A stretch of DNA of 64,000 nt from NCBI GenBank assembly GCA_951406725.2, contig OX597815.1, positions 100,998,001 through 101,062,000 of the forward strand, written 5' to 3'. This stretch comes from Octopus vulgaris. Lineage: Eukaryota. The notes under the pieces were generated by a model, which worked only from the letters and a program-made list of their open reading frames with translations, had not been told where the DNA came from and did no database searches. Positions within the stretch are counted from its first letter, which is position 1, and each line of letters opens with the position of its first letter. The position numbers were made by a program, and so were the translations under genes. Shown piece after piece: positions 7,495 to 33,919 of the stretch.

Positions 7495-8691
7495 ATGTCA
7501 ACATTAGAAAAACATCCTCTGTATACTCTGTCGACTTCCTGTGAAGACGACAAAACTATCATACACGCAGTTTTTACAGAGTCCATTTTAGGAAAACTGC
7601 AAGATTTTTTAAGAAACGCAACAGAGAGTTGTCTGCATCCCACTATTAAAATATATAACGATGGTACAGGTTTTATTCAAATTCCTGTATGTCCTTTTGA
7701 GACAGATAGCGAACAATATACATTTCATTTTAACTTATATTGTGTACAAGGTAAAGTCAATGGCGTTTTTTATTGTCTCCAGCAAGTGCTGTCAAAAAAT
7801 GAAAACTGTATCAGTTCTTTAGGGTGTATCACTCATAAACTAGTTATGCATGGAAATCGTGATTCGTTTAAAGAATTCAGAAAAAGAATGCACGTGGAAG
7901 AAGCGAAAAAGAAACCTGCGAAAGAGATTTGTCTATCAAAGAATCTTAAATACAAAAAATTTCTCTCGCATTCAGATAATGAGGTTTCGAATTTTAATGC
8001 ATTACTTTGTGATGGCTGGAATAATAAGGCCTTAATATCTGACAATTTATCTGGGGAATCTTCATTTTCATTGAGTAATGAGTTACATATTCCCTCGTAC
8101 GTTAGGAAATCATCATTACGAAAGAGAATTATTCATTTGTTAGCTCTTCGACCATATAACAAGTGTGAACTACTTCGATTATTGAAAAGACATGGCATTT
8201 CCGAAAATGACAAAAAATCCTTTGAATTTAAATTAAGTGAAGTATCTACATGTTACAAAAGACAGCGATTTACTTTGACTATTCCTGCTTGGAAGGAAGT
8301 TGATGCTGCGTGGCCGTATTATAGAGTGGAGCAGCGACAACTTGTGAGAAGACGGCTAAATGCAATGTATCGTGGGACTTCAGATCGTCTAGAAGAGCAT
8401 TTTCATTCAACAGATTTTGAATTTCTGGAAAAGAAACCAACATCAAATAATGGTTTACAGACTCTTAATCTCAACAATAAACAGAAATTTCTACAATCAG
8501 CTTTATGTCCCGAACCTAAACATATAAGAAGATTCAAGGAAAGGTGTCATCCAAATGTTTTAGAGGATGTCGAGAAGCATTACCATAGTATTTCTGATAT
8601 TCAGTCTTCTTTTCACTTACATAAAAATATGAGAATACCTATCTCTGAAACAATAGAAAGTAAACAGAAACGTAAGTATAAAAATCCATAG
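7495..8691 (+). CDS. ELL: Intronless ELL-like RNA polymerase II elongation factor (N-terminal ELL domain plus winged-helix region), probable retrogene; possibly the first coding exon (7495-8671) of an ELL-EAF fusion
   Basis: 398-aa uninterrupted ORF. SLRKRIIHLLALRPYNKCELLRLLKRHG...WKEVDAAWPYY matches the ELL motif LRDRVIHLLALKPYKKPELL..L.KDG...KEVQ.DWPGY. The N-terminal GVFYCLQQ...SLGCITHKL...DSF matches ELL GSFDCIQQ...LGSIQDKI...DSY. Confidence 0.85.
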   Translation: MSTLEKHPLYTLSTSCEDDKTIIHAVFTESILGKLQDFLRNATESCLHPTIKIYNDGTGFIQIPVCPFETDSEQYTFHFNLYCVQGKVNGVFYCLQQVLSKNENCISSLGCITHKLVMHGNRDSFKEFRKRMHVEEAKKKPAKEICLSKNLKYKKFLSHSDNEVSNFNALLCDGWNNKALISDNLSGESSFSLSNELHIPSYVRKSSLRKRIIHLLALRPYNKCELLRLLKRHGISENDKKSFEFKLSEVSTCYKRQRFTLTIPAWKEVDAAWPYYRVEQRQLVRRRLNAMYRGTSDRLEEHFHSTDFEFLEKKPTSNNGLQTLNLNNKQKFLQSALCPEPKHIRRFKERCHPNVLEDVEKHYHSISDIQSSFHLHKNMRIPISETIESKQKRKYKNP

Positions 8692-8710
8692 TTTTAAAAG
8701 CGAAAAAAAT

Positions 8711-8716
8711 AATAAA
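8711..8716 (+). terminator. Candidate polyadenylation signal for a stand-alone ELL-like transcript
   Basis: AATAAA 20 nt after the ORF stop. The region is AT-rich, so this is weak evidence. Confidence 0.3.
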
Positions 8717-8989
8717 TATATAATTATAAGGAATTGAGACATGCAAGAATTATATTCTACGTAGTGTGTTACAGCTAATGAAATGAAGAAAATCCTTGCC
8801 CTTCTGGAGAAAAAGAAATTGAAATTTGTCTTTCTAAATTCCAATGAATTCGATGTCCGCAAAATATTCCTGTTTCCCTCTATTACACCAATCTAGATTA
8901 AGCTGGAGCACTATATGTAACAATGAACATTATTCAATAATTATAATTGATCACTTTTTCTAAAGCTCCTCCTCCTCCAGAGAGAGCGG

Positions 8990-9830
8990 ATTGACAATCA
9001 AACTGGACACAATATGACAATAAAAATAATGATTGTTTAAGCGAAAGCTGAGAGCTTGTTTGATGGTTTGCAAGAAGGGGAAAGTGCAACTTTTGATGCA
9101 AAACCTTGTCTGGCCAGTAAAATCTGGTCTGAAAGGTAAAATAAACGCCTAATTTTGCACACTGACCTGTGAAACTGACAATGCTGAAACAGAACCTGTA
9201 GTAATTATTATTCTGCGGAGCTGGGGAAAATAATTGCTGAAGTAGGCTACATACCAGAACAAATATACAGTATTGATAAAAATAGGATTTTATGAGTCTA
9301 CATGTCTGTTAGAGCTTTTATTTCAAGTGAAGAAAACTTAGCATCGGGTTGTTAAAGTTTCAAAAGTCGTCTTGCGCATCTTGTTGAAGGAAATGCTACT
9401 ATTGATGTGAAATTACTACCCTTACTCCAAAAATACAATGATTTTCGAAGGTTATGCAAAATTTAATCTACCTATGATCTGACATTCAAATAGAAAGTCT
9501 TGAGGGAATATGAGCCTTTTGCGATACTGGTTTACAAACTTCCCTACCCTGCTGTGTCTCGTGTAATGTTTCCCAGAAAGTTTTTCTCGTTTTAGACAAT
9601 ACTTAGCCATTCAGTGAAATTAAAAGTGCTTTCTAATAATGTGAGAGTGGAGTATATTCCCAAGAACACGATTTCTTTGCTCCAATCAATGAACTATAGT
9701 GTGATAGCAAGTTTCACAATATATCATATCAGAATTTCGAAACAATTCATAAAAAAGCAATTGATAGGAACTACAGTCGAGTCACAAAATGAAGTGAATC
9801 TTTCAGCGATATGAATGTTGTTTAATTTGG
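8990..9830 (+). mobile_element. Decayed pogo/Tigger-type DDE transposase remnant
   Basis: Broken frames read GYIPEQIYSIDKIGF, RAFISSEENLASG, RLAHLVEGNA and VEYIPKNTISLLQSMNYSVIASF. Compare Tigger GYLPEQVFNADE and YLPPNTTSLIQPLDQGVI. Confidence 0.75.
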
Positions 9831-10772
9831 AAAATATATGTCCGGTTTATATCAGGGGTTTTATAGATTTTCCACAAACAGAAGGGTTTGTGGGAATATT
9901 CAGCAGTCAGATCTCTATATCAGATGTTACTATAAATTGTAGATTAATTGATTAGTTGCTCAGGTCCCATAGAGGAAGTTTGTCTAGGAAGCTGATTCTT
10001 TTAGAGGAGCAGAATGCTTAGTAAGAGGATATAGAAGCTCCACTGGGTCCTTTTCAGTTGACTTTCAAGAATATAGCTAAAGGGTTGGAATTTACCGGAT
10101 AAGATTTGCAAATCTTTGCCGATGACAATCATAATTGTGAAATGTGAACGTAAAATTACAAAAGGACTATATACTGAGTTCAGTCCCCACACAGGAGCTG
10201 TTCAACGAAATGGCGTACTGTAAATGTTGAACAACTTTGAATGTTTGTCACCCTTGAAATAGTGATGATTATGTTCTGCAGAATAGAAAATAGTGTCCTT
10301 TTTTCTCCAAGTAATTCCCATTGCACCCTACCGACTGACATATTTTGTGATATGTATCCTAATGTAATATTTCTCGAAGAAAAGAAATTCATCGGAAAGC
10401 CTTATAACATCGAAATCAATGGGGAATTGATTTTCGTTTCACGGAATCCCACATTACGGTACAATTACAGAACGCAACGTTCCCGTAAAGCGGGAGGTGC
10501 CTAAGAGTTATTTCTCTTTATTACCGAGCTCTTCAATGTCTATTATTTTCATGTCCCACTTCAGAGTCTGTTGACATTCTCTCTCTACTCATAGTTCCTG
10601 TCCCAATCGAGATATTTTTCGACATCTCTACTATTCACATGCATACAAATGCTTTTCTTTACGCACATCTATCTCTTTCGATAGATAACATTGGTTCTCT
10701 TAGTTCCTGTTTTTGTTGTAAATAACTTTTTCTATTTTAGCGTGGTCCTTCGCAACTCTAGCTTGTCTCGTC

Positions 10773-10857
10773 ATGGCAGAAGACAATAGTGTTGTTGAAC
10801 TTAGACTTGGAGCAAGCTTTGATCCGAATCCTAGAGTTGCTTTCCATTCTGTCAGAT
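10773..10857 (+). CDS. EAF: EAF coding exon 1 (MAEDNSVVELRLGASFDPNPRVAFHSVR)
   Basis: Matches the EAF N-terminus (LRLGESF...SFHTIR-Y). GTAAGT donor at 10858. An upstream acceptor tttctattttag ends at 10740. Confidence 0.9.
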
Positions 10858-11876
10858 GTAAGTACTGAAACTTTCTCTCGTGTATTCGCTTTATAATCAC
10901 CTCTTCATTCGTTTTACTATTTCAAATGTTCCAAGTTCGGTCATGGTCGACTTCGCCTTTCGTCCTTCCGGGAAATCGATAAAGCAAGTAAAGTAATAGC
11001 AGAAGTTTTTCCGAATGTGTTATCGTCCGTATACTCGGTAATAGAGCTTCCATAACATTCGTGGATTTGCACCTACATTATAAATCATTATTTCGAATAT
11101 ATCCAGTGATTAGAATTGGTCTACAATTATGATCGTTGATGAAAGAGAATACAAGGTAACTGAAATATACCAAATATTGTTCTAATACCTTGATATTTCT
11201 CATTTAACAAATAATCATAAGCCAGCTGGTTATCAAATTAATCTCATTCTGTCGTGGACCGTTGTATGATCATTTAATTACTAAATTACACTTACAAATC
11301 TCTGAGATCAGATAGGAAGCCTTATATAGTAACAGTCAGTTTAACCCAAATTAACCATCAATGTTCCAGACGTGACCATCCTGCCTACCCTGTGTACTCT
11401 TATTTAAGACAGCTAGAGATATCAGTCGGCCGCATAGAGATTTTCTCGTATCGTAACTTCTTTTTTTTTTCTTGTGTGTATGTCAAACCTCGCCATCGGG
11501 TACTATTATATATATATTAGTTGAAATACCCTTGATTATATGCATACCCGCATGCTTGCGCATACTTTTGTTGCGTAGTTTCGCTTCTGTTCATGTGCAT
11601 CAAAAATAATCGTGCAAGTTAACTGTACTTGATTGAGAAATTTACACCGCCATATGTTTAGCTAACGATATTGATGTTATGGTGTATGTCCGATGTATTG
11701 TAAAATATCACTGAGTTTGTGTTTTCTTGTTGGTTTGGAAGCGAAATTTATAGGAATAAGTATTCGTTTTAAATTTAAACTTATACAAAGGAAAATGAAA
11801 CAAGTTAGTGCTTCGAATAAGAATTTTGATGAACAAAAGGTAAAATAAATTACTTGCACGCATGTTTGTGTGGGGG

Positions 11877-11914
<38 letters not shown>

Positions 11915-12769
11915 TTATAGGCCTAGGGTCTGAAGAAACGCTGTAAAGCTAAGCGCTTTATGGACGTGAAATTAAAGGTAACCTGGTAGACCGGCCGTAT
12001 CTATCTATCTATCTATCTACCTACCTATCTGTCTGTCTGTCTGTCTGCTCACACGCGCACACAAAAATCGCTGTGTTAGAACTGGAAACCTTGTGGTAAC
12101 AATCAGTTATGGCTAATTAGCTCAAATCGACAATGAAAGAGCAAACCCATCATGAAAGGAGTATCTGTCGTACCCGTCAGTCAGATGTAATTTTCTTTAT
12201 TTAAAGTTGTAATAAGTGGTTTAAGCAAAATTTAGCTCCTATTTCCAACAGATTGCCTGAGTGATGAATTGGCAGAATCATTAGAGCATCCGATAGCTTA
12301 CCTCACCGTGCATTCTGACTGGTTGGCTCTTGATGGCAAAGGCAACACCGTAGCCATGCTGATCTTCATAGCTTTTGCCCCTTGCAAAAGATGTAGCCAG
12401 CTCCTGTTTCTTCACGCTGGTCTTCACCAGGTAGATAGGTCTCACTCTCCATGTGCTAAGAGACCTTGCTTTTTTGTTATTTCGGAACTGAAAGAACATC
12501 ATACCAGATGCCTTGCATTATTTATTCTGGCTCTTTGCATTTTGTGATCATATCCTGTATTGGCTTACATGGGTAGTAAACTGTTTCCGTCTCTCAGTTT
12601 AAATCCATTAGTCCTGTAGTGGATTCCATTGAACAAGCTTTTGGGCCAGGTTACTGTTCCCCAATCTCGGACACCCTGTGAAGGTTCATAGTCACTGTTT
12701 TCATGTTTGACTAGAAAAAAAAGTGTAGCGCAGAACTGTAGCAAAGAAATGAATCGTCAACTGATAAAT

Positions 12770-13045
12770 CATCATCACCGTTTAACATCCGCTTTCCATG
12801 CTAGCATGGGTTGGACGATTTGACTGAGGACTGGTGAACCAGATGGCTGCACCAGGCTCCAATCTGATCTGGTGAAGCTATCAACTGCTTGTAGTTTTTC
12901 TTCCTGGAATGTGGCAGAAGTTGTTCTCTATCTTCCCAGTTAGCCTTCCTTTGATATTGCTACACCTCTTATGTGTCCATAGCTTACACTGGGTACATCT
13001 TATAGAGTTTCTACCTATGCTTTTTCTACAGATCGAGCAGGGTCA
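12770..13045 (-). mobile_element. RTE LINE 3' tail plus a fragment of the PHD region
   Basis: catcatcaccgtttaacatccgctttccatgctagc tail, followed by sequence matching the PCSICRK...WTHKRC region. Confidence 0.8.
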
Positions 13046-14018
13046 CTTTTTATTGAGTTGTGCCTACAACCAACTGATTAATGTTAGGGAGTAGTTGGAG
13101 TTGTAATTCATAAAAATATCGTGTTTAGGAAAGTGATTGTATGAGATCGTTTACGAGTGCTTGTGTAGTTCATTGCTGTGTAAATTATCAAATTAATGAA
13201 TGATATCAATAAAAATATTTTGGCAATAAGAAATTTAAACAAACAAATGTAGGACATTCCTAGCAAATGATCAACTGCAGTCATTTACAGCAAATCAATG
13301 TATTTATATTAAACTTAAAATTTCCATCATAATTTATGTAAAGTCTTTTAAGACATGTTCCCAATATTAGCTTAATAATGAAAAAGTTATTTTAGTAAAT
13401 CTTTCCAAGTTCTTGATTATGTTAAAAATTTACTGAAATACATAGATGTGTATTTCATTAGGAATATAGCCATGAAACGGTTAAAAAAGCTTACTAATTT
13501 AAACTTGTTAGCTTTTTATTGCCATTGTGTTCTTAAATAATACATTATGAACTTTATATTTAACTTTTGAATATTTGTACTATAATATGTTAATGTATAT
13601 ATACTATAATGTTAGTATAATATAATACACCCACTAATATTGGTCCTTGTATGGTTTTGTGTTTGAGAAGTTTGCTTCACGACATATTTCTTCTCAGTTT
13701 AGTCCTGCTGTTCAAGCCCATGGACTGGACTGTGACCATTTTTTGCTCAGTTTAACATTGTCAACAGGCCCACAGGTGCCTTTTGCTGAGCCCCTCTATT
13801 GCAAGCATTCAGCTAGGTGAAGACAAAATAAGATGTAGTTTCTTCCTCCCTTATCCTTACCTGTTCCCAAGAAGTGTGGGGACTCCAAAATGTTAGAGGT
13901 ACCGAAAAAGCCATACCTGCTTATTCAGTGAAGATAATATTTCTTAAAACATGACTAATATAAATGAAATCGTCTATCAGCTTGTCAGGTAATTTTAATT
14001 TTCTATTGATTATCTTAG

Positions 14019-14113
14019 ATGACTTTAAACCAGCATCGGTTGATGTTACAAAAGAAGCTGCTTTAGAAGTTGGTGAGAAAAACCAAGTTACAATAACTGT
14101 GCCACATATTGAG
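14019..14113 (+). CDS. EAF: EAF exon 2 (Y-DFKPASVDVTKEAALEVGEKNQVTITVPHIE)
   Basis: Diagnostic EAF motif YDFKPAS. AG/GTAAG boundaries with consistent phase. Confidence 0.95.
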
Positions 14114-14302
14114 GTAAGTTAGGATTATTGTATTGCAAAAAATCAGGCTAACTACCACACTGCATTCTGTCTTTAATTAAATTTAATTCCAGGAATTGTC
14201 TTTCTTGCTTTTCTTAATCAGAATTAATAACTCAGCTAATAATTTTTTCTATTCAGTACAGTCGTAGTTGTAATTGCCTCACTCATCATCATCATGTATA
14301 TA

Positions 14303-14814
14303 CCGTAAATCCTCGAGTATAGTCCGCCCTTGAGTATAATACGCAGGGGATTTTTATGGGGCTGTACCTTTGAAAAATCTAAACATTGTGTATAATACGC
14401 ACCCCTTCTCTAACTTGAGTCAAGGAGGTCTATATAACGTCCTTGGTTTGTAAAAATGTATACTGTAGTGTCCTTTATTATTATTGTATATATAACATAA
14501 TGCTAACGTGTAGCTTTTTTGTGTATTTTGTTGGCAGAAAATAAAGAAATAACAGTTATAACGTTTAATAAATGTTGCTTACTGCAAGTTATGGATGATT
14601 CTTTTATGACTTCATTGCTTTCAGGCTTAGCTGAAGGTATTTTTGCGCCCAACATCACAAAATCTGTCTGCATAAACATTGCTGAACAGCAAATAGAGAC
14701 TCGGACTTTGTTTAGGAAATATTTTTCATTTTTAACCTCGTATATAGTACGCACTAAGGATTTTGACCTTTATATTTTGGGAAAAAAATGCAGATTATAC
14801 TCAAGGATTTACGG
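14303..14814. mobile_element. Tc1/mariner-superfamily (Tc2-like) MITE
   Basis: TIRs ccgtaaatcctcgagtata and tatactcaaggatttacgg, with TA on both flanks. Confidence 0.85.
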
Positions 14815-14944
14815 TATATATATATATATATATATGTTAGCTTTTTATATATATATCATCACATGTATACATACACATCATCATTATATATATATATATA
14901 TATATCATTATCATCATATATATACACACACACATATATCATCA

Positions 14945-15088
14945 TTATCATCATCATCATCGTTTAACATCCGCTTTCCATGCTAGCATGGGTTGGATGG
15001 TTCAACTGGGTTCTGGGAAGCCAGAAGGCTGCACCAGGCCCAGTCTGATCTGGCAGTGTTTCTACAGCTGGATGCCCTTCCTAACGCC

Positions 15089-15130
<42 letters not shown>

Positions 15131-16320
15131 TCATCATCATCGTTTAACGTCCGTTTTCCATGGCATGGGTTGGACGGTTTGACTGAGGTCTGGAGAGCTA
15201 GCGGCTGCACCAGGCTCCAATCTGATCTGGCAAAGTTTCTACAGCTGGATGCTCGTCCTGAGAGTGTAGTGGGTGCTTTTTATGTGCCACTGGCACAGGA
15301 GCTGGTCAGGTGGGCCTGGCTTTGATCATGTTTGGATAGTGTTTTTTATGTGCCACCAGCATGGGACCCAGTCAGGGGGAACTGGCCACAGCTACAATAT
15401 TGGTTTTACTTGACTCAAGCATACAGGTCTTCTCAAGCATATATTGCCTGATGCATCAGGGGTATTCTTAACAGGGCCGCACATGTGTGGCTGCGATCTC
15501 ACTTTTGTTGCCAGGTCTTCTCAGTCATAGCATATCTCCAAAGGTCCTGGTCTCCTGTCATTGCCTCTGTGAGGCCCAATATTTGACGGCCATGCTTCAC
15601 TACCTTGTCCCATGTCTTCCTGGGTCTACTTCCACAGGTTCCTTCTACAGTTAGGGAGTGGCACTTTCTCACGCAGCTGTCTTCATCCATATGTAACACA
15701 TAACCATACTAGCACAGTCGCCTCTCTTGCACACCACATTTGATGCTTCTTATGCCCAACTTTTCTCTCAGGGCACTTACACTCTGTCATGTATGCACAT
15801 TACATTACACATCCAGCGGATCATACTAGCTTCATTTCTTTCAAGCCTACGCATGTCCTCAGCATGCATGGTCCATGTTTCACTGCCGTGTAGCATGTCA
15901 GTTCGCACACATGCATCTTACAGTCTACCTTTCACCCTGAGCAAGAGACCTTTAGCTGTCAACAGAGGTAGGAGCTCCCTGAACTTTGCCCAGGCTATTC
16001 TTACTCTAGTTGCTTCACTCTCAGAGCAGCTACCCTCACTACAGACTTGGTCACCTGGGTAGTGGAAGCTATTAACTACTTCTGGTTTTTCCCCTTGACA
16101 TGTGATGTAATCCGTTTTCTGTATATCATATATATATATATAAATATATTTATATATACATATCATATATCAATCCTGGCGTTAGGAAGGGCATCCAGCT
16201 GTAGAAACTCTGCCAGATCAAGATTGGAGCCTGGTGCAGCCATCTAGTTCACCAGCCCTCAATCAAATCATCCAACCCATGCTAGCATGGAAAGCAGATG
16301 TTAAACGATGATGATGATAA
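14945..16320. mobile_element. Cluster of RTE LINE pieces: minus tail (~14945-15090), 5'-truncated minus copy (~15128-16125), plus tail (~16175-16320), separated by (TA)n
   Basis: Shared tail sequence. Minus-strand peptides GRPRKTWD..VKH and RVRIAWAKFRELLPLL. Confidence 0.85.
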
Positions 16321-17066
16321 TATATATATATAATAAATTAATAAATAAAATAAAACATATGCATATATACATACATATATGTACGTACCTACCTCTACAT
16401 GTATATATACATGCATATATGGGTACAGGACACCAAAAAAACGTCGAACACAATGAGAAACGAAAACATAAACACAAAACCAAAGAAATGGACATTTTCT
16501 TAAACAACGATAAAATAGAGTACAGGACATACAATACAAGGAAAATTCCCCTTCTTCAGTCGCCTTTGTTTCATCTACTCCATGTTTTGAAGGTCAAGGC
16601 GAGACACGACTTTAATGAAACATTCCTTCCTGCGAAAAGCAAATTAAATAAAATTTGAGATTTTTTGGCGGAGGGGTAAAAATGGTAACAAAAAACAGGA
16701 CAGTAAAGACAGTACAAAATATAAACAGTAAAGGACAGGACAAGGAGAATAACAGTAACACAAACATTGAGAGCTGTTAAGCCAGAATGAACGAAAAAAT
16801 ATTATGAACGGTTTTGAGGACGGCAAGAGAGAGACAGGAAAGCCATCCACACTTGAAGGAAGCCAGGTCAGAAAGACAGTAGCAGAGCTCTCGTCACGGA
16901 TCAATGATGGGAGGGAGGAGGAGGAGCAAGAGAAAGGGAGAGAAAAAAAGGGAATGGTTGTAGAGAAAACCAGAAAGAATGAAGAATGAGAGAGAGAGGG
17001 AGAGACAGTAAGGTAGAAGAAAAGGAAACCCGAAAGGTTAAGAGTGTGCATCATTATTAATATTAA

Positions 17067-17109
<43 letters not shown>

Positions 17110-17560
17110 TATCATCACATATAATGATTTTGCTTCGACATAGCAATACTCATAACCTGTTAGAACTTAATATGCATATGCTTCAGAAAAATGTTATGTG
17201 ATTACATGAAATTAAAGAAATAGCAAAGAAACAGGAATTACATAATCAGCCTTGTTAGCTGTTTCTGCTATAAGATGCAGTGCATTCAGAGGTGAGTACT
17301 TATGCATCACCTTATTGCTCCTTGGAGCTTCTAAAAAAATATATAGCTCTGAGGAAGTTACAAGTGATGCACAAGCAGTCAAATCTTGGTGCACTGCATC
17401 TTATAGCAGAAACACCTGTAAGCTAATAAGGTTGATTGCATAATTCCTCCCTTGTCATTTCTTGAATTTCATTAAATATATGTATATATATATCATCATC
17501 ATCATCATCGTTATATATATTTATCTTTAATTTCATTCTATGTATACACATATATATATA

Positions 17561-18310
17561 CAGTGGGGGGGGGGCAGTTCCACTAATCCACTAACAGCTA
17601 ATTAGCAAAGCTAACTTTTCATTTAGCTGATTAGCATTTCCGCTAACTTTGAAAGCTGTTAGCGGACCAGTTAGCTTCTGCTAAATTTAGTTCCGCTAAC
17701 TTTCACCTGTTTTGGCAGGAGCAGTATAATAACAGCCAGGTTAGCTGGGTAACAAATGCCATGGAGACTGTCATAGAAACAGCCCTAATGGAGACCAGTG
17801 AGGAGGGCAACAGCACCACCAGTGATTTCTTCAGCAACATCACCTGGTTCTTGAAGAGCAGGGGTCACAGGTCTCTGAAATCCAAGGCGCAGAACTTGGT
17901 GAGGATCTGGCTGGAGGCTGTCTCTAAGGGGGTCCTGACTTTTTGGGCGAGCAGGCCTTAATCGACCTGTTCACCTAACACCTCCATCTCATTCAATGCT
18001 GCGCCTATTCTCTTTAGGCAAAGATATTTTGAGGGCCAAGAGAGCCACCCTGTCAGATGATAACTTGAGAGGCTGATGTTTATGAAGGGCAACAGGCATC
18101 ACATTAAGGTGATGGAGAAGGCCCAGCCAGAGTAGTACATCTTGATCATCATCTGATCTTGACATGATATTTATGCTATACTATATCTTTTTGATTCATT
18201 TAATACTTTTTGTACAGTAAATAAAGTGTATGTTGACTGAAAAACTAATGTTTAATTTCATTTGTTCATTTAATTATTTGCATACACCTTAATCGTCATC
18301 TGATCTTGGC
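17561..18310 (+). mobile_element. hAT DNA transposon remnant
   Basis: CAGTG start after TA, gctaac-rich subterminal repeats, and a C-terminal dimerisation-like motif LFSLGKDILRAKRATLSDDN..RLMFMKGN at ~18005-18095. Confidence 0.7.
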
Positions 18311-20134: not shown

Positions 20135-20271
20135 AGTTCAGGTACGACACACACTGTGTATAAAGGAAATAAAAGGACATGTCCAAAAGAGTGTGTCCTT
20201 ATTATTGATAATGCCTCCGGATCAGTTACACTGGAAAAACTCTCCAACACCATACAAGTGAAGAAAACTAG
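20135..20271 (+). CDS. EAF: EAF exon 3 ([46 protein letters not shown])
   Basis: EAF core (KGNKR...KECVLII...LEKL...IQVKKTR). AG/GTAAG boundaries. Confidence 0.95.
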
Positions 20272-22344: not shown

Positions 22345-22508
22345 AGCTGAAGGTTCTAGTCGTCTTTCTATGAGGCCACTCACTCCTGTTGACAGTAGTA
22401 AAATGAAAACATCACCTCCGAAAAGTGGCAAAATGTCTCAGCATAGTCCATCTTCCTTTAAAGAGTGTTCTCCAGCTTTGACACCAGTTGAACCTGATAA
22501 CAACAGAG
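22345..22508 (+). CDS. EAF: EAF exon 4 (AEGSSRLSMRPLTP...PDNNR)
   Basis: Continues the conserved KKTR-AEGSS. Polypyrimidine/AG acceptor and GTAAG donor; phase fits. Confidence 0.9.
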
Positions 22509-22874: not shown

Positions 22875-23560
22875 TACACACACTATATATTTGTTCTTCA
22901 CTCGTCTATTATTGTTCTTATTCTAACTCATGTCTATTGTCCAAAAATCTTCCATCACACATCTGTGACCTCCTCAGTGACACTTTCCATATTGTGTGTG
23001 CTCTTGCTCTGCTTATTCTATTCTGTTCTTCTATGATGTGTATCCTTATATGCACATGAATCTGTGTTTTGTGTGTGTGTGATTGTTCTTAGTAGCATTA
23101 TGATCCTCTCCTCAGGCCTGTCCCCTGCCCTGTTGAGTGCTGCTGCTGCCCTTAAACTCGATTTTTTGTACCATTCTTGTAACTCACTGTGCTTGTGTGT
23201 TTGACCACGATGGCAGCAGCATGGGCGAACATACAAACACAGTAAGTTACAAGAACGGTACAAAAAGTCGGGTTCAAGGGCAGCAGCAATGGCAACTGGG
23301 TAGGGGACATGGCTGGGGAGCGGGTCGTAATGCTACTCAGAACAGTGACTTATATGCACACAAACACAGACACATGTGCATATAAGGATACACATCATAG
23401 AAGAACAGAATGGAATAAGTGGAACAGGAGCACTCACGAAGATGGAAAGTGTCGCTGAGAAGGTCACACAGGAATGACAAAAGACTTCTGGACAATGGAT
23501 ATGAGTTAAAATAAGAACAGTAATAAATGAGTGAAGAACGAATATATAGTGCATGTGGTT
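22875..23560. repeat. ~700-bp foldback palindrome in EAF intron 4
   Basis: The arms are reverse complements meeting near 23215. The ORF track shows near-identical peptides on opposite strands (HYIFVLHS..VLILTH..CP). Confidence 0.88.
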
Positions 23561-23694
23561 AATTGGGAGAAAAATAAATAAATAAATGAACTACAACAAT
23601 ATCTATTCAACACACAACTTCACATCAAGAATCATGCAACACAAATTCATAAACATGTGTGTGTATATATATACACATATATATATGTATACAC

Positions 23695-23726
<32 letters not shown>

Positions 23727-23814
23727 GCGTGTGCGTGTGTGTGTGTGTGTGCATGCGTGCATATGTGTGTGTGTTTGTGTGCATGTATATATGCAGTTTG
23801 TGTGTATGTATATA

Positions 23815-25011
23815 TGTGGGTTTTTTGTACTTCTTTTATTTTTCAAAATTAAGATAAACAGTTCATTTTTAATCTAAAATATACTCTCCTGCATTTTCTA
23901 CAATGCTCTTCCATCTATCTAGTAGACTGGCAAGGCTCCTCTTCCAAAATTTACTTGTCCGTGACAAAAAATACTCCTCGAGTACTGTACTGACCTCATC
24001 TACAGAATTCATATTTTTTCTGTCCAAATGATTTTGAAGAATGCAGAATAAATGATAATCAGATGGGTCACTGTCCATCGATTATGGTGGATGGGGCATC
24101 ATTTCTCATTTAAATTGATCCAGCTTTGGAATATCATCCTTGATGTATGTGGCCAAACATTATCCTGATGGAAGAACACCTTTCATCTTGAAACCAAAGA
24201 TGGTCGTTTTTCTTTTAGTGCTGTCTTGAATGACTGGTTGAATGGCCAAATCCAAGCTTCTCTGCTAGTTCTTCAATGGTTATGATGGGATTTTGTTCCA
24301 CCAGGGTTTGCAGGACATCCTCGTCGAGCTCTAAAGATCTTCCAGGATGAGGCTTGTCTTCTAGGCTGTAGTTTTTGGTTCAGAATTTTGGAATCATTGT
24401 TGACACTGGCTTATGCTTATTGTCTGATCTCCATCTCCATCATCATCATCATCATCATCGTTTAACGTCCGCTTTCCATACTAGCATGGGTTGGACGATT
24501 TGACTGAGGACTGGCGAACCAGATGGCTGCACCAGGCTCCAATCTCGATCTGGCAGAGTTTCTACAGCTGGATGCCCTTCTTAATGCCAACCACTCCGAA
24601 AGTGTAATGGGTGCTTTTCGTGCCACCAGCATGAGGGCCAGTCAGGCGGTACTGGCAACAGCCATGCTCAAATGTGTTTTTTACGTGCCACCTGCACAGG
24701 AGTCAGTCCAGCAGCACTGGCAATGACCTTGTTACTGCATTAATATTCCTTGCACTTTCTGTTGCATTGTTGCCTTTATTGAATCCATAAAGCAAAATAT
24801 GCCGAATATGCTCCTTTATTTCTTCTATTATAGCTTTGAAAAAGTAACTGTTAGAATCAAACTGCACTCTTCAAAACTTGTACTAAGAATAAGGACAAGG
24901 TAAAATTACTACCTGCTTTTATAGCAAGTTGATGCAGGTAGCTTATCCCATCACCCTCTATCTTTTAGCTTGTGCAATTGAATAAACCACATTATTTATG
25001 GGAAAACCCAA
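23815..25011 (-). mobile_element. Decayed mariner transposon interrupted by an RTE tail (~24440-24730)
   Basis: PSDYHLF...LQNHL...RWKSIVENAGEYI is a mariner transposase C-terminus. A TIR-like ttgggttttcccataaataatgtgg (minus strand) ends at TA near 25011. Confidence 0.85.
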
Positions 25012-27504
25012 TATATGTATGTTTGTGTATATTTGTGTCTCCTTTTCTTGACATCATGTGTAGTCGTAAGTCATTGTCACTGTCATACAAGCAGTGTCAT
25101 TCATTTCCAGTATACTGTGAAAACATGTCTGGTTATGAGGAAGTATTATCTTGGTTGGTAACAAGTGAGGGTTGGTGATGGCAAGGGCATCCAACCATAG
25201 ACAGTCTGCCTTAATAAATTCTATCTGATCCATGCAAGCATGGAAAAGTGGATGTTAAAATGAAATGATAAATGATGTATGTGTATGCTTGTGTCTCCTT
25301 ATCTTGATGTTGCATAATAGTTGTGTGTGAGTAACACAATAATGCAGGCGGTATCTTTTATTTTCTCTCTTCTGTGAAAATATGTCTTGTTCATGGGGAA
25401 ATATTGCTTTACTTAGAAAAAGGTTAGGGTTGGTGACAGAAAAGCATCCAGCCATAGAAAATCCATCTTGTCCAACCCATACTAGTATCGAGAAGTGGAT
25501 GTTAAAAAAAAACTGAAAACATTGATGACATTGTACTATGTAACTGATTTGCAACTTTAACCAGCTACAATACTGGCATCATAGGCAGTTGTACAAATCT
25601 CACATCAGTCATTATGTTATGTTACCAATGCTCTGATTCTGCTTTCTGTGTTTCAACCATAAAATGAGGGTTATATCTGATTAACACAGCTACCTATGCA
25701 TTTCACAGTTAAATGGTTAGTTGTAGGAAGGATTTGTCCAATCTTTTCCATGAAAAGTGTACATATGTCAGTGAATCAGAAAGTAATACAATTTTTTATT
25801 TGCATAACTGTCTGACTCACCCTCTTATAATAAAGATAATGGGAACATAAGTAAGATGATATCATATTTGTGAGGCAAATTTTAATTGTGGAAAGAGCTA
25901 ATGAGTCATTCAGATTACTCTGTCAAATGTGATACTTATTTATTTACATTGTTTTGAATTAGTCCTGCATTATTTTGTAGCTTCAAGATTTCAATGATGT
26001 GATTGTTTATTTTTAGAATAACATTGCAGGGTAAGTGTGAGAGGCCAAATCTGGCTGGCTTGAACATAAAATGGGTAGAACATTTAGGCCAAATATAGCC
26101 ATTTTAAGTGAGTGTGAGATTGATGCTGCCTGACTAATTTTACATTATTGTAAATTCAGATCTTACTGCTGTAATTATATTGTACTCTCTATGTGAACTT
26201 TGTCTTTCACCCTTCTGGTATCAACAGAATAAAGTATTAGTCATTTACTGAGGTCAGTTTGTGCTTTTGTGTTTATGTTAGATATTAAGCTGTTCTCCTG
26301 AGCTAAACAACTAATTTCTGCTTTGTCCATTTGATCTGACTAAAGAATGAAGCAGGCTTATTATTGCCTTTCCATAAATGGAAACTCCGAGTTATGAAAC
26401 ATCCAGCAGTTATATGTCATGTTTATGTGAGATATATAAACGTTTATTTGGAATTCACTATCCTATTTATCTTTCATCTTTTGCTTGTTTTGGTCATTAG
26501 ACTGTGGCCATGTTGGGGCACTGCCTTGATGAATGAATCAACTCTGGTACTTATTCCATCAGTCTCTCTTGAGAACTGCAAAGTTATAGGGGTACAAACA
26601 CAACAACACGAGTTGTCAAGCAGTGGTGGGAGACACATACACACACACACACACATGCACACATACATACACATTTATATAAATAAAAGTGATATTCTGT
26701 CTGTCCCTCTGGGATTCCTGTATCTCAGTCTACATTTTGGTCTACATAAAGGTCTTGGAATCAGGATGATCCCGATATTGAAAATCTGACCTTCATTTGA
26801 TTCTTGAACATCCAGCATTAGGATCTGATGTAAGAGTATTTGGCTGTTATTTCTAGCTAATAGAACAACTATGAGAGGTTTCAAACGGTTTGCAAGAGTT
26901 ACCTCCCTTAGCTATAATACTAAACATGACATTCTGTGTCAGAAAACTGACCAAAACTTTTTGAATTTAATACTAAAACTTTGTGACAGTTACCTCTGTT
27001 ACCTACAATAATAAACGTTACATTCTATCTGTCAACCACTGTTTCTTTACAGTGTACACCAAATTTCACAGTGACACAAAATTCTCCAATTGTGATACTC
27101 TGTGATGTTAATCTGAGATGGTAGGGTACCAATAAATGTTTTATTACTATTGCTCTCTCCAGTTTGGGGCTGATAGCCCAATCAGCCCTCTGTAGGAGCT
27201 TGTGTATAAGTCTGCAATGAGTGCAGCTTTCAGTATCCATCTATGAAATCCACTCACAAGGCTTTGGTTGGCCCAAGGTGCCATGAAGTGGGACTGAACT
27301 TGGGACCATGTGGTTGGGAAGCAAACATCTTACCCCACACCTATTTACTTTATATACTTTAATTTACATCTGTTTCTCTCTATTTTGTTAGTGTTTTCTT
27401 GGCTCTACTCAGTCCTCATCCAGCTAACATATGATTGTAGGTGTTCTAACAATGACCAGCCCTTTTATTTCAGTATCATATATCTAAATTGTCTAATATG
27501 CATA

Positions 27505-29770
27505 TCATCATCATCATCATCATTTAACGTCAGCTTCCCATGCTGGCATAGGTTGGATGGTTTGACTGAAGACTGGCATGGTTTCTACAGCTGGATGCCT
27601 TTCCTAATACCAACCACTCCAAGAGTGTAGTGGGTGCTTTTTATGTGCCACCAGCACGAGGGCCAGTCAAGTGGTTCTGGCATCGACCACGCCCGAATGG
27701 TGTTTTTACATGCCACCAGCATAGGAGCCATTCAAGTGGCACTGGCAAAGACCACGCTTAAATGGTGCTTTTTATGTGCCATTGGCATGGGACCAGTCAG
27801 GTGGCATTGTCAACGACCATGCTGAAATGATGCTTTTTACGTGCCACTGGCACGGTACTGGCATCAGCCACAACAATGATTTCACTTGACTCAGCAGGTC
27901 TTCTCAAGCACAGTTTGTTGCTCAATGATTGAAAGGTACTCTTAAATGGGCCGGTTATGCTATACTGACATAGGCCATGGTTACAGTCTCATTTGGCTTG
28001 CCAGGTCTTCTCAAGCACAGCATATCTCCAAAGGTCTTGGTTGCTTGTCATTGCCTCCATGAGGCCCAACGTTTGAAGGTCGTGCTTCACCACCTCATCC
28101 CAGGGTTTCCTGGGTCTACTGCTTCCACAGGTTTCCTCCACTGTAAGGGCATGACGCTTTTTCACACAGTTGTCCTTATCCATATGCAATACATGGCCAT
28201 ACCAGCACAGTCGTCTCTCTTGCACACCACATTTGATGCTTCTTATATCCAACTTTTCTCTTAAGGTGCTTACACCCTGTCATGTATGTACACTGACACA
28301 TCCAGCTGAGAATACTAGCTTCATTTCTTGCAAGCTTACACATGTCCTCAGCAGTCACAGCCCATGTTTCACTGCCATGTAGCATGGCTGTTTGCACACC
28401 TGTGTCATACAGTCTACCTTTTACTTTGAGTGAGAGGCCCTTTGTTACCTGCAGAGGTAGGAGCTCTCTGAACTTTGCCCAGGCTATTCTTATTCTAGCA
28501 GCTATGCTCTCAGAGCATTCACCCCAGCTACTGACTTGGTCACCTAGGTAATGGAAGCTATCAACTACTTCTAGTTTTACCTCCTGACATGTGACGGAAG
28601 CTGTTTTCTGTATATTTTCAATGTTTATTGTCCCTGTGCATCTGCCACACACAAAAACTATCTTCCCAGTTAGCCTTCCTTTGATATTGCTGCACTTCTT
28701 ATGTGTCCATAGCTTACACTGGGTACATCTTATGGAGTTTCTACCTACGCCTTTTCTACAGATTGAGCAGGGCCATCTACCTGAAGGGATTTGTGATTTG
28801 TCTGCTAGATTCACTCTGAGGTCCTTTGATTCTAGACCTTGTTTCCACACCTGAAACTTCTCCTCTAGTTCTAATAGTGACTCAGCTATTAGAGCAAGGT
28901 CATCAGTATAGAGAAGCTCTCAGGGGCATCCTGTCTTGAATTCCTTTGTTATTGCCTGGAGGACTATGATGAATAAGGGGGTGTTGAGGACTGATCCTTG
29001 GTAGATCCCTACCCAGAATTCTTCACTATACTCATTGCCAGCCCTCTCCTTACTGACAGCATCCTTGTACATGGCTTGTACAGCTTTTACTAACCACTCA
29101 TCTATCCCTAGTTTTCACATTGACCATCAGATAAGGAATCGGGGTCCCTGTCAAAAGCTTTCTCCATGTCAACGAAAGCCAAGTACAGAGGTTTATCTTT
29201 GGCTAAGTATTTCTCCTGCAGCTGACTTACCGGAAATATAGCATCAATGGTGCTTCTCCTTGGCACAAACCCAAACTGCATTTTGTCTAAACTAACTCTC
29301 TCCCTAATTAGTTGGGCTATGACCCTCTCTGTGACTTTCATTACCTGATCCAACTACTTGATACCTCTGTAATTATTTATATCTAATGCATCACATTTAC
29401 CTTTGTAGCAGTTGACTATGGTGCTGCTATACCAGTCATTGGGTATGACTCCTTCATGTATCACTTGATTGACTATATGGATGACTAGATTATAGCCGAC
29501 ACTGCCAAATATTTTAAGCATTTTTGCAGTGATTCCTGATGGGCCAGGGGCTTTCCCTGTCTTCAAACCCTTAATTGCTTTATCTACCAAGGTACTGTCA
29601 ATTTGGATAGCTAGTCCATTTGTTGGGTCAACATTTAGCAGACTCTCTTTCTCTTTGTTTAGCAACCTTTCATAGTATAGTGGTATCTCCAAGTCTCTCT
29701 CTTCGCAGCCTCATTAAATGCAAGTGAGCCATCATACATGCGGACATATTTCTCTTCTATGACATCATGA
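27505..29770 (-). mobile_element. 5'-truncated RTE LINE (RT, PHD finger, 3' UTR and (GAT)n tail), degenerate
   Basis: GKAPGPSGITA, NNYRGIK, QFGFVPRRSTIDAIF, AFVDMEKAFDR, CSIC...CTQC..WTHKKC...CGRC, RLCWYGHVLHM, RPRKPWDEVV. Confidence 0.93.
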
Positions 29771-30170
29771 TTCTCTCTCTCTCTCTCTCTCTCACATACA
29801 CACACACACATACCTTTTTTTTTTGATAAAATAGGTGAAATTTGAGGGAGATTTTGTGGCTACTTTATGTGGGTTTAATCAGCATATAGAGGCTCCTTCA
29901 TTGCTTGTATCAATCTACCTCACTCGTATTAGTTTCTAACTGTTATCCTGTATTCATCATTATCATCATCATCATTGTCATCATCATCAATAACGTCTGT
30001 TTTCCATGCTTGCATGGGTTGGACGGTTTGACTGAGGTCTGGAGAGCCAGTGGCTGCACCAGGCTCCACTCTGGTATTATATTTAGCTTTTGCTGCAAAA
30101 TAACTGTTCACTTTGTAGATTTCTGTGTTCAACTACATATTGAGATTTTGTTGTTTCTGTTTTGTTCCAG

Positions 30171-30323
30171 ATAATGGTAACAGTTCTCTAAATGTGTGTG
30201 CTCCAGTAGCGTTGACAAATAACATGTCAGAAAGCAGCAGTAGTAGTTCTTCATCAAGTGGCAGTGATGTGTCTAGTGATTCAGAATCAGACAACTCTGA
30301 TTCAGAGGGAGGACCTAACAAAG
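30171..30323 (+). CDS. EAF: EAF exon 5, Ser/Asp/Glu-rich region (MSESSSSSSSSSGSDVSSDSESDNSDSE)
   Basis: Acidic serine-rich segment typical of the EAF activation domain. ttccag and gtaaac boundaries, phase 1-1. Confidence 0.88.
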
Positions 30324-31092
30324 GTAAACATTGTTTCAATTTGATGATTCGATGAATTTTGTAAAGATATTCCTCAGAAACTGCTTGATGGTTTTCCAGT
30401 TAACAAACTAAACAATCGTACCTCCTTCCATGTCAAACAACTAATGTACTCAATAGCAAATTGAATTTTCTGTCAGTTTTGGGGATGAATATTCCAATTG
30501 TTTGATAAACAAAACTACCAACTCATTGCTTTATTGTGTAAGTAGCTGAGTGTTTAAAATGTATTTGAGTCATTGTTGTAATTCTGAGGTTAACTCAACA
30601 TGACACACTGTGAAAATTCTGGCCTCCTGTATATTTTTAGAATGATATTGTAAGGTAGGTATGAAAGGTTGGATCTGGTCAGTTTTAACACGAAATAAGT
30701 AGAATATTTGGGCTTCATTAAATGCTAAATGGTTAATCTGGCCCTACTTTCAGTGAGTCAGTGGCCAGCAAGTTGACAAACCTCTTTCACTGGGATTGCT
30801 GTTTTTAATTTTTTACTTCTTCATTTTCCACTTTCTCCTGGTCTTTCCTCCTCTTTTATTGCACTGTCTGAAGTACAATATCCAAAACATTTTAGAGATT
30901 AACTATTTTCATTTCCCTGAGTGTCGAGCATGTAACATGGTTTGTGAACTCATTCCACTTTTTGTTGATTTTTATTTGCCAAATAGATACATATGTGTGT
31001 GTGTGCGTGTGTGTTTTATTAAGTATGTTGCTCGTGCCAATAATTATGTTTATTTTCCTATTTTAAAAATCTTATTTGATATTTTTCTTCAG

Positions 31093-31140
31093 ATACTCCT
31101 GCTCCATGTGATGTTCCATCGAAAGACCTTAGTACGTTAA
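31093..31140 (+). CDS. EAF: EAF exon 6 (DTPAPCDVPSKDLSTL)
   Basis: tttcttcag acceptor and GTAAGT donor. Phase 1-1 links exons 5 and 7. Confidence 0.75.
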   Translation: MLLLHVMFHRKTLVR

Positions 31141-32269
31141 GTAAGTATAATTTATTCTCATTTTTTTTTCATATGCAAGAAGGTGTTGAAAAGTCCATGG
31201 CTTTAAGGGTATTGTGAAAGGCTTGGTTGGGGGCCCAACCTTCCAACAGCTGCAATAAGTCTGTAAATCTAAGAAGGGAATCTGTTGTGATCCTCCTGTA
31301 TTCTCTTTTACCCAAAGCCAGGAACTTTTCAGCACCCCTTCATATTCATTATGGTCATTGTAGTGTAACATTGACCAACACATTTAACTCTCCTTGCTTT
31401 TATGTATCTTACTGACATGGAAAAAGGTTCTTTATTTACTTCAGTTTCATTTTGAGTGGTATATCTAACATATGACCCAGTGTAACATTACCATCACCAG
31501 TCATAGTGTGCAGTTCCCACTGTATTGTAACAATTCAGGTCATCTGTGGCCTTCTCCCCCTCTTCTCACTAGCTTGTATAAAGAACTTCCTACTCTGTTT
31601 GATAGGTTGTTGTTATTTAAACTGTGGTTAGCTCTGTTCAGATATGTTGTTGATCAAATGAGTTCCAGTTGTGACTGTTTTACCTTTTTTTTTGCATAAT
31701 ATATCTAAGATTACATCATGTAGTATTTACTTCATTTTTTTAAGATGGTAGGGCATGATTTGAAAGAGGTTTGGCTGCTATTTCTCCATTTGAGTGACCA
31801 CATAAAAGCTCCCTCAGTGGCTAAGAACATGCAGCTATCAAAAGTATTTTTACTGTTTACATCCATTCTTCAATGTGTGAGAGATGGTTAATTGTTAGAG
31901 TAGTTGTTGGGTGCCCTTCCTGCTATGATCACTGTAGCTGTGAAGTAGTTGAGTTGTACTTTGTTCAAGGGTAGTACATGTTAGTTACTGAAATAATATT
32001 TAAACTTATAAGAATGTATTAGAAATGAAAATGTATTAACAAGGCACATTATGAATTAGTTAGTTGCTAAGTGAAATTATCTGTTAAAAGATCTGATCTC
32101 AAGATCCTGGACTTCGCAAAAGAGATGATAGACCACAACAAGTAGTGAAGCTAGTTTAACCCTTTAGTGTTCAGATTAATCTATCGAATGCAATGTTTAT
32201 TTGTTCACATTATTTTGAATTATTCAGGTTCAATATTTGCTTGTAACTTAGTTAATTTTTTACATCATT

Positions 32270-33045
32270 ATCATCATCATCATTGTTTAACGTCTGCTTT
32301 CCATGCTAGCATGGATTGGACGATTTGACTGAGGTCTAGTGAACCAGATGGCTGCACCAGATTCCAATCTGATCTGGCAGAGTTTCTACAGCTGGATGCC
32401 TTTCCTAACGCCAACCACTCCGAGAGTGTAGTGGGTGCTTTTATGTGCCACCAGCATGAGGGCTAGTAAGGCAGTACTGGCAGAGATTTTGTCAGTGGGG
32501 TGCTTATCTACCAGTGGATTATAGTTATGTAATTTTAACTGATCTTGCTGATTAAATTTGACTTTTATGGGCAGGTAAATTTAATTAATAGGTATAAAAG
32601 CAATAACATGTATAAACACTATATTTGAAATTCTTAATGCATCTTACCTGTTTGATTTGTTACTAAAATTATCCCAGATGTCAACTGCCAACAATTTTGA
32701 ACCTTTTCAAGATGAGATAGATTAATTTGAATTAGCCGGTGGCATGCTGTGCCAGTGGTTCGTAAAAAGCACCATCTGTATGTGACCGATGCCAGCGCCG
32801 CCTTGACTGGCTTCCGTGCTGGTGGCACGTAAAAGGCACCAACCGATCATGGCCGTTGCCAGCCTCCCCTGGCACGTAAAAAGCACCCACTACACTCATG
32901 GAGTGGTTGGCGTTAGGAAGGGCATCCAGCTGTAGAAACACTGCCAGATCAGACTGGAGCCTGGTGCAGCCTCCTGGCTTCCCAGACCCCGGTCGAACCA
33001 TCCAACCCATGGAAAACGGATGTTAAACGATGATGATGATGATGT
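32270..33045. mobile_element. Two RTE 3'-tail copies in opposite orientation (minus ~32270-32485, plus ~32735-33045)
   Basis: The same tail (ggcgttaggaagggcatccagctgtagaaac...aaacgatgatgatg) occurs on each strand. Confidence 0.85.
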
Positions 33046-33875
33046 ATAATCAGTACAAGATTTTATTCTTTCTCTGTTTCATTCAAACATTTTCATTGTA
33101 AATAAAGTACAAAACTCTTTAACTAGTCAATATACCATTGGCTATGTACTCTTATACAATTTAATGAATACATTTACATAACAGAATGCATCTAATAAAA
33201 AATACTCATTAACAGGCGAGGCAAAGGTGAATACAGGTGTGTAACATACTGAAAATTAATCTGTATTTCTCACTTTCACATTATTTGTAATAAAATGAAA
33301 GGAATACATGATAGTATTACTATCAAACAACAAAATATAGTTATGCCATATTTCTATCAGGAAGCTGTCCAAAACACCCTTTACACAAAGGCATTTTGCA
33401 AAACAAACCCATATGAGGTCTCGATATCCTTTTGCAGTTTTTCGTTTTTTACAACAAACACTCTGCAAAATTTTTCCACTTTATGGAAGTCAATATTTTC
33501 TCTGATGACATCCACCCCAGTTAATTTTACTTTTCTCTTAGTTCTGTGCTTTCTGGAAGTAAAGCCCTCATGTCACTGAGATGCGATGTCAGCCCAAAAT
33601 TTCAAATTGTCATTGACCTTTGGTTGGTGGAGGTACCTTGTGGCTTTTTACATATACAATACTAGCAGTATTGCCTGGCTCGTGCGCATTAAATGTAGCA
33701 GTGAAAAATAAAGAAAACAAAACGACAAAATATTGATATAAAATATCTAGATAGTTACCATTTTCTTTTTTTTGCTATCAACTATGTGAATCCCCAACCT
33801 CCTCCTCCTCCTCTTCCTCCTCCACCAGAAAGTGTATCTCATTGTATATTTTATTCTCTCTTTCTATTTTTCAAG

Positions 33876-33919
33876 GTGAAGACTTACATTTGACTGAATC
33901 AGGCAGTGACAGTGAATGA
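33876..33919 (+). CDS. EAF: EAF terminal coding exon (SEDLHLTESGSDSE*)
   Basis: Matches the conserved EAF C-terminus (DLQLSESGSDSD). Long polypyrimidine tract and AG acceptor. Confidence 0.92.

What the first reader, a model, noticed from the sequence alone, without database searches (positions are those of the whole stretch)
7495..33919. Predicted natural ELL-EAF fusion gene: an ELL-like exon splices in frame into its partner EAF
Seen in sequence: the ELL-like ORF has a consensus donor AAC|GTAAGT after 8671 (phase 1, six residues before the stop). An acceptor tttttctattttAG ends at 10740, 32 nt before the EAF ATG. Joining them reads ...SKQK-P-WSFATLACLV-MAEDNS... with no stop or frameshift, predicting a chimera of about 644 aa (ELL N-terminal and winged-helix regions plus full-length EAF). 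Established: ELL and EAF form a heterodimer through their N-terminal domains in the Pol II super elongation complex, and EAF carries an acidic activation domain. Inference: a retroposed ELL was captured as an alternative first exon of EAF, giving a tethered elongation module in which EAF replaces the ELL occludin domain. Caveat: frame agreement arises by chance about one time in three, and the acceptor may normally serve a non-coding EAF 5' exon.
Basis: partly seen in the sequence, partly recalled or inferred. Interest (0 to 1): 0.92.

Follow-up and report, generated by a model that had tools for sequence, protein, structure and literature searches.

The report
Octopus ELL-EAF chimeric retrogene
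In octopuses an intronless copy of the gene for the transcription elongation factor ELL sits just upstream of the gene for its own binding partner EAF and is spliced onto it, which predicts one protein that carries both halves of a complex normally made from two genes.

Summary
Confirmed. The ELL-like exon (7495-8671) splices in frame into EAF (10741); eight exons give 644 aa without a stop. The GT..AG joint 8671-10741 stands in contigs of 2 of 4 runs laid, from two studies of close relatives, and those contigs run on into EAF exon 2. The other 2 runs hold an unfused EAF with a continuous leader. Three Octopus annotations already contain the fusion under uninformative names; five paper searches found no description. 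The exon lacks at least 6 introns of the 11+-exon parent ELL 61 Mb away, groups with octopod ELL, and has a consecutive accession with EAF in Argonauta. Its folded domains are conserved and its linkers are not. It keeps the ELL dimerisation and winged-helix domains but has no occludin domain, the AFF/SEC contact. A model pairs its N-domain with EAF (0.79, best control 0.30), which may be likeness to PDB 7OKX. Best reading (0.55): a tethered, SEC-independent ELL-EAF elongation module made beside ordinary ELL and EAF. Not shown: the protein, its abundance, tissue and activity.

The parts
6700..7494 (+). 5' leader of the fused transcript, unspliced where seen; the X3 contig begins at 7461 (no ATG before 7495), the X6 contig reaches beyond 6700 (22 ATGs in 6592-7494)
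   Evidence: contigs cannot fix a start site
7495..8671 (+). Intronless ELL-derived coding exon (392 codons + 1 nt), single copy in the genome
7522..7911 (+). ELL N-terminal dimerisation domain and following helix (aa 10-139)
   Evidence: Pfam PF10390 E 8e-43; AlphaFold2 model; Foldseek best hit 7okx_M, E 2.7e-9
8095..8382 (+). ELL winged-helix domain (aa 201-296), the most conserved part
   Evidence: pLDDT 90-98; hits 2doa, 2e5n; 91/92 identical to P0012, 79/92 to Argonauta
8383..8671 (+). Fast-evolving tether (aa 297-392)
   Evidence: 83/100 identical to P0012 over aa 293-392; mostly low pLDDT
8672..8677 (+). Splice donor GTAAGT, phase 1
8672..8716 (+). End of the unspliced ORF (stop 8689-8691) and an AATAAA at 8711; a possible ELL-like-only transcript, not shown
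8672..10740 (+). 2069-nt intron of the fused form; its 3' part (from 9968 in X1, 10340 in X2) is continuous leader of the unfused EAF form
10741..10772 (+). 32-nt linker: coding in the fusion, leader in unfused EAF; open also in the O. bimaculoides and O. sinensis records
10773..10857 (+). EAF coding exon 1 (ATG 10773 = Met404 of the fusion)
14019..14113 (+). EAF exon 2
   Evidence: loose ends of all 4 runs match its start
20135..20271 (+). EAF exon 3
   Evidence: PF09816 match
22345..22508 (+). EAF exon 4
30171..30323 (+). EAF exon 5, Ser/Asp/Glu-rich tract
31093..31140 (+). EAF exon 6
33876..33919 (+). EAF last coding exon with the DLxL[S/T]..SGSD tail and stop
34106..34111 (+). Poly(A) signal; fits the length of the contig tails (641 coding nt + about 170-210)

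Best explanation
An ELL mRNA copy was inserted just upstream of EAF in an octopod ancestor, lost the occludin-domain part and gained a donor that splices to an acceptor 32 nt before the EAF start codon. The locus now has two outputs: ordinary 241-aa EAF from a proximal start and a 644-aa ELL-EAF chimera from a distal start; full-length ELL still comes from the parent gene. SHOWN: gene structure, spliced joint, both forms, intron loss, domain content, constraint on the folded domains. INFERRED: the chimera is translated; its ELL N-domain folds with its own EAF N-domain through a 270-residue tether that holds the winged helix; this module docks on the Pol II lobe like ELL2-EAF1 and suppresses pausing. 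Without an occludin domain it cannot bind AFF scaffolds and so works outside the super elongation complex and P-TEFb, while the free EAF tail can bind Mediator MED26. It would be a hard-wired 'ELL-EAF only' elongation factor, probably limited to some tissues.
For: Joint in 2 of 4 runs laid, two studies, contig lengths fitting the whole fused CDS. Fusion models in three Octopus species; P0002 is identical to residues 132-644. Parent has at least 11 coding exons, at least 6 introns in aa 1-324, none in the copy. Copy is sister to octopod ELL, UFBoot 93. Argonauta ELL-like GAB1604857.1 and EAF GAB1604858.1 are consecutive, on a contig of the same length. Domains against linkers: Argonauta 173/232 v 40/95, p 5e-8; winged helix v tail in P0012 91/92 v 83/100, p 9e-5. 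21 of 25 near-invariant ELL residues kept. The frame after the donor differs between window and P0012 (6 v 35 codons), as for intron. Complex model of ELL-like 1-150 with EAF 404-515: score 0.79, best of 3 controls 0.30, runs agree in at least 89% of contacts, partner pLDDT at least 72; mark reached by 51 of 78 solved and 2 of 108 mismatched microbial pairs (eukaryotes 71 of 105 and 2 of 126); a like complex is solved (7OKX), so it shows likeness, not binding. Human data: the occludin domain binds AFF4 (PMC5290273, abstract) and its loss abolishes SEC binding (PMC9638944, PMC8387021, passages); EAF1's C-terminus binds MED26 (PMC9133132, PMC8387021, passages); ELL2-EAF1 dimerisation domains bind the Pol II lobe (PMC10716050, passages).
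Against: No protein or activity data. The joint was seen only in relatives, and a contig shows no single molecule or level. The copy has a long stem (1.2 substitutions/site) and changed the conserved KLTDSA stretch to VFTESI, 20 of 64 positions conserved at 75% are changed. pN/pS on 25 of 28 differences of X3 is 0.67, not different from neutral (p 0.24). In human cells loss of the occludin domain also abolished EAF1 binding in co-IP (PMC9638944, PMC8387021, passages), so N-domain pairing may depend on the tether. The O. vulgaris model starts at Met132, without the dimerisation domain. The Argonauta model is a separate, partial 327-aa gene, so the fusion may be younger than the copy.
Confidence: 0.55

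Rival explanations
1. The chimera is made and selected, but as a brake or decoy: it locks its EAF in cis and occupies the Pol II lobe site (shared with ELL-EAF and TFIIF) or MED26 without stimulating elongation; or the useful product is a winged-helix-EAF form from Met132.
For: N-domain is less conserved than the winged helix (94/140 v 79/92 with Argonauta); K26V, L27F, F53I, A120G at near-invariant positions; CAI9717901.1 starts at Met132; in human cells ELL-EAF1 is reported as a complex apart from SEC and LEC, with EAF1 as a negative regulator (PMC13324577, section 29).
Against: The N-domain fold is kept, is better conserved than the adjacent linker (94/140 v 27/60, p 0.004), and 21 of 25 near-invariant residues remain.
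Confidence: 0.2
2. The ELL retrogene works alone as a 398-aa protein; the spliced fusion is a read-through by-product that happens to be in frame.
For: AATAAA 20 nt after the unspliced stop; Logan protein P0012 (4 contigs, RNA or DNA unknown) reads through the donor; Argonauta is annotated as two genes; the donor hexamer is the commonest of this gene; an independent unfused EAF form exists.
Against: In X3 and X6 the contig that carries the ELL exon joins across the intron into EAF and on to its 3' end; X3 is a small set (33,653 contigs) yet holds the ORF without a gap; the codons after the donor are not conserved; the linker is open in three species.
Confidence: 0.2
3. The retrocopy is a decaying pseudogene that only lends EAF a second promoter and leader.
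For: High protein divergence from the parent (54/133 identical in the N-domain); pN/pS not significant.
Against: Open frame in three Octopus records, P0012 and 327 aa of Argonauta; winged helix 91/92 and 79/92 identical while linkers drift.
Confidence: 0.05

Closest known systems
Human ELL2-EAF1 on Pol II (PDB 7OKX/7OKY)
   Same: Both chains are the best PDB sequence hits of the chimera (7okx_O E 5.5e-40, 7okx_M E 8.7e-17); the model of the ELL-like N-domain matches 7okx_M.
   Different: One chain instead of two; no occludin domain; diverged N-domain. The structure paper was not held; its content is known here from PDB titles and passages of PMC10716050.
Database records XP_029655880.2 (O. sinensis LOC115229709), XP_014781336.1 and A0A0L8GG99 (O. 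bimaculoides), CAI9717901.1 (O. vulgaris)
   Same: Same joint and linker; XP_029655880.2 differs from the window's product at 4 of 644 residues.
   Different: Automatic models named 'uncharacterized', 'ELL-like', 'reverse transcriptase domain' or 'EAF1-like'; none names the fusion, and three are truncated or mis-joined.
Chimeric retrogenes such as TRIMCyp, jingwei, PIPSL (recalled, no call)
   Same: A processed copy recruited as an exon of a host gene, giving a two-domain protein next to the unfused host product.
   Different: In those cases (as recalled) donor and host are not the two subunits of one heterodimer; here the copy landed at its own partner.
Separate ELL-EAF1 complex of human cells (PMC13324577, section 29) and S. 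pombe Ell1-Eaf1 (PMC6212713, passages)
   Same: An ELL-EAF unit that acts apart from SEC; Ell1-Eaf1 stimulates elongation in vitro without a scaffold.
   Different: Those are reversible two-chain complexes of an ELL that still binds an AFF-like protein; here the pairing is fixed by the gene and the AFF-binding domain is gone.

Membership tests
ELL family | N-terminal dimerisation domain (PF10390, 7okx_M fold) | tested here: met
ELL family | Winged-helix domain | tested here: met
ELL family | C-terminal occludin homology domain (PF07303) | tested here: not met
   present in parent P0014, absent from P0013, P0012, P0003; no remnant in the intron by tblastn or blastn
ELL family | Binds EAF through the N-domain | tested here: inconclusive
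   model passes (0.79 v 0.30) but a like complex is solved
ELL family | Stimulates Pol II elongation | not testable with these tools
   needs an assay
EAF family | EAF N-terminal domain (PF09816) | tested here: met
   aa 412-510, E 1.6e-23
EAF family | Ser/Asp/Glu tract and LxxDLxLS motif (PMC8387021, passage) | tested here: inconclusive
   tract present; motif reads LxxDLxLT in Octopus and Argonauta, S in 59 of 62 aligned EAFs
Super elongation complex subunit | AFF-binding occludin domain | tested here: not met
   PMC5290273 abstract
Chimeric retrogene | Parent with introns elsewhere, copy without them | tested here: met
Chimeric retrogene | Copy spliced in frame to host exons in RNA | tested here: met
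   (relatives' contigs)
Chimeric retrogene | Poly(A) remnant and target-site duplication | not tested
   not searched for; the copy is old
Chimeric retrogene | Chimeric protein is made and has a function | not testable with these tools
   only indirect constraint
Read-through (cis-spliced) by-product | Minor share of transcripts | tested here: inconclusive
   contig depth is one mean per contig; the ratio of forms cannot be read

The most novel reading that the evidence does not exclude
Octopods have evolved a single-chain, SEC-independent Pol II elongation factor by retroposing ELL onto its own partner, and in some tissues this chimera is the main product of the EAF locus, giving Mediator-recruited, P-TEFb-uncoupled control of elongation on very long octopus genes.
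Probability: 0.3. Interest if true: 0.85.

Novelty: new variant of a known kind. Interest (0 to 1): 0.7.

Why it matters
A processed copy that ends up fused to the gene of its own heterodimer partner in a 2.8-Gb genome is hard to put down to chance and points to selection for the pairing. An EAF domain was found in 4 of 162 ELL-family rows, all Octopus, and an ELL domain in 0 of 187 further EAF rows, so the architecture looks lineage-specific within what was searched. It also bears on an open question: papers disagree on whether EAF is a part of SEC/LEC or a rival partner of ELL (PMC9133132 passages against PMC13324577 section 29). A natural ELL-EAF that cannot bind AFF isolates the ELL-EAF-only function and can be assayed directly. 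The annotation should be corrected in any case.

Tried and rejected
No RNA holder listed: none of the 24 runs is on record as RNA; the spliced joints are my ground for reading the four laid runs as RNA. X1 and X2 have no contig over the ELL exon, and X3 and X6 none for the proximal leader or the unspliced end; gaps in contigs prove nothing and are not used. Counts of the joint in other runs were not given. Single-chain AlphaFold2 of the 644-aa chimera: mean pLDDT 57.7, pTM 0.36, EAF part poorly modelled from an alignment with ELL tails in the EAF columns; no verdict on pairing in cis. Alignment A4 misplaced 20 ELL fragments and was dropped. The complex tool did not use my alignments. My first exon limits were 1-3 nt off and were corrected. 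No occludin remnant in the intron; the match of the ORF's last residues to the start of the parent's occludin domain may be an end artefact. Exact look-up of stand-alone Octopus EAF: not in the collection. ESM Atlas: no usable hit. No squid or cuttlefish ELL-like copy among the best 150 of 284 representatives, most of them unnamed; no proof of absence. The N-terminal extension of P0198 (Sepia cluster) does not resemble the linker by eye. Earlier findings: none. Papers: one search gave 0; 16 listed; 15 of 54 listed; 10 of 145 listed; none on this locus by title and abstract start; one search gave 0 for three accessions (its fourth term was a guessed ID prefix with 2 listings, not opened). Subscription journals and all supplements were not seen; genome-paper supplements may list the gene.
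Full report
Observation. With exon limits taken from the O. sinensis record and corrected to GT..AG, eight exons give 644 aa with no internal stop. The genome is 2.8 Gb in 227 contigs; its products match Octopus vulgaris records letter for letter.

The splice is real. Four runs of assembled contigs were laid on 6700-11400. In X3 and X6 (two studies, two organism labels, about 97-98% alike to the window; 15 of the 18 listed amino-acid changes of X3 match the O. bimaculoides record) one contig covers the ELL exon to 8671, jumps 2069 nt (GT..AG) to 10741, covers EAF exon 1 and goes on into exon 2. The remaining 813 and 852 nt fit exons 2-7 (641 nt) plus a 3' end near the AATAAA at 34106. In X1 and X2 (99+% alike) contigs run without a break from 9968 or 10340 through 10740 into exon 1 and exon 2, i.e. 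an unfused EAF. So both forms exist, k = 2 of 4 each. Limits: RNA status of the runs is a guess of the tool, a contig is not a single molecule, depth is one mean per contig, and tissue is unknown; the share of the fused form cannot be read.

Already in databases. The joint stands in XP_014781336.1 and A0A0L8GG99 (O. bimaculoides), XP_029655880.2 (O. sinensis, 644 aa, 4 differences) and CAI9717901.1 (O. vulgaris, identical to aa 132-644). These are automatic models that may borrow from each other. Five searches of the paper library found no description (listings only; supplements and subscription journals not seen).

Origin. The parent ELL lies 61 Mb away on the same contig with at least 11 coding exons and at least 6 introns within aa 1-324; the copy has none and is single. 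In a tree of 23 sequences and 239 columns the copies from the window, an unnamed octopus-like record (P0012) and Argonauta form a clade (100) sister to octopod ELL (93), on a stem of 1.2 substitutions per site and with much shorter branches since; 70 of the 93 aligned rows were left out of the tree for speed. Whether Argonauta splices them is untested; its model is partial.

Constraint. Against Argonauta: N-domain 94/140, linker 27/60, winged helix 79/92, tail 13/35; against P0012: 128/140, 52/60, 91/92, 83/100 (Fisher p 5e-8 and 9e-5). 21 of 25 residues near-invariant in 90 other ELLs are kept; K26, L27, F53 and A120 are changed. Against this, the copy evolves faster than the parent (573 of 578 identical between the two Octopus parents) and pN/pS from 25 of 28 X3 differences is 0.67, p 0.24; 10 of its 18 non-silent changes fall in the tail, none in the winged helix.

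Anatomy and mechanism. The model of the exon's product has a confident N-domain (best fold hit ELL2 in the Pol II-ELL2-EAF1 structure, E 2.7e-9) and winged helix. The occludin domain is absent. A two-chain model pairs ELL-like 1-150 with EAF 404-515 at 0.79 against a best control of 0.30, with at least 89% contact agreement and partner pLDDT of at least 72; the mark was reached by 51 of 78 solved and 2 of 108 mismatched microbial pairs (eukaryotes: 71 of 105, 2 of 126), and since 7OKX is solved the pass shows likeness only. The tether is 270 residues, long enough for pairing in cis (inference). From human work: the dimerisation domains bind the Pol II lobe (PMC10716050, passages); the occludin domain binds AFF4 (PMC5290273, abstract) and is needed for SEC binding (PMC9638944, passages; PMC8387021, passages); EAF1's tail binds MED26 but not while bound by ELL's occludin domain (PMC9133132; PMC8387021); ELL-EAF1 may be a complex apart from SEC and LEC (PMC13324577, abstract and section 29); fission yeast Ell1-Eaf1 stimulates elongation in vitro (PMC6212713, passages). 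I infer a tethered ELL-EAF module that binds Pol II outside SEC with a free MED26-binding tail (0.55). Rivals: a decoy or brake (0.2), a read-through by-product of a retrogene that works alone (0.2), a pseudogene promoter (0.05).

Rarity. An EAF profile hit 4 of 162 ELL-family rows, all Octopus; an ELL profile hit 0 of 187 further EAF rows. These rows are the listed best hits of four searches, not a census.

Verdict. A real, expressed, conserved chimeric retrogene, annotated but apparently undescribed; not a full member of the ELL family (occludin domain missing) but likely to work like the ELL-EAF heterodimer. New variant of a known kind; interest 0.7. What is missing is protein-level and functional evidence, and the joint in the window's own species.

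Noticed in passing
window 33876-33919: The EAF C-terminal motif reads DLxLT in Octopus and Argonauta but DLxLS in 59 of 62 aligned EAFs, including the Sepia cluster; an octopod change at the reported MED26-binding motif.
   Followed up: partly
window 7377-7384 and 5326-5333: TGACGTCA (CRE-like palindrome, label recalled) about 80 nt upstream of the X3 contig start; 3 copies in the window, so possibly chance.
   Followed up: no
window 10340-10772: The proximal EAF leader holds 7 upstream ATGs; the true start may lie further 3' or translation may be damped.
   Followed up: no
window 281-5200: Degenerate LTR-retrotransposon-like ORFs (Ty3/Gypsy look by eye); the three ORFs tested had no Pfam hit.
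   Followed up: partly
window 5914-6064: Degenerate interstitial TTAGGG array about 1.4 kb upstream of the ELL-like ATG.
   Followed up: no
window 28176-29710 (-), 36822-38997 (+), 57939-60855: LINE fragments: endonuclease and RVT_1 hits, with PHD-finger-like hits in ORFs 28179-28919 and 59445-60053. One copy lies in EAF intron 4, and a LINE-like piece is mis-joined into model A0A0L8GG99.
   Followed up: partly
window 8660-8691 against parent P0014 aa 474-483: The last residues of the unspliced ORF align with the first residues of the parent's occludin domain, a hint that the donor arose where the copy was cut short; may be an alignment artefact.
   Followed up: partly
   Followed up: no
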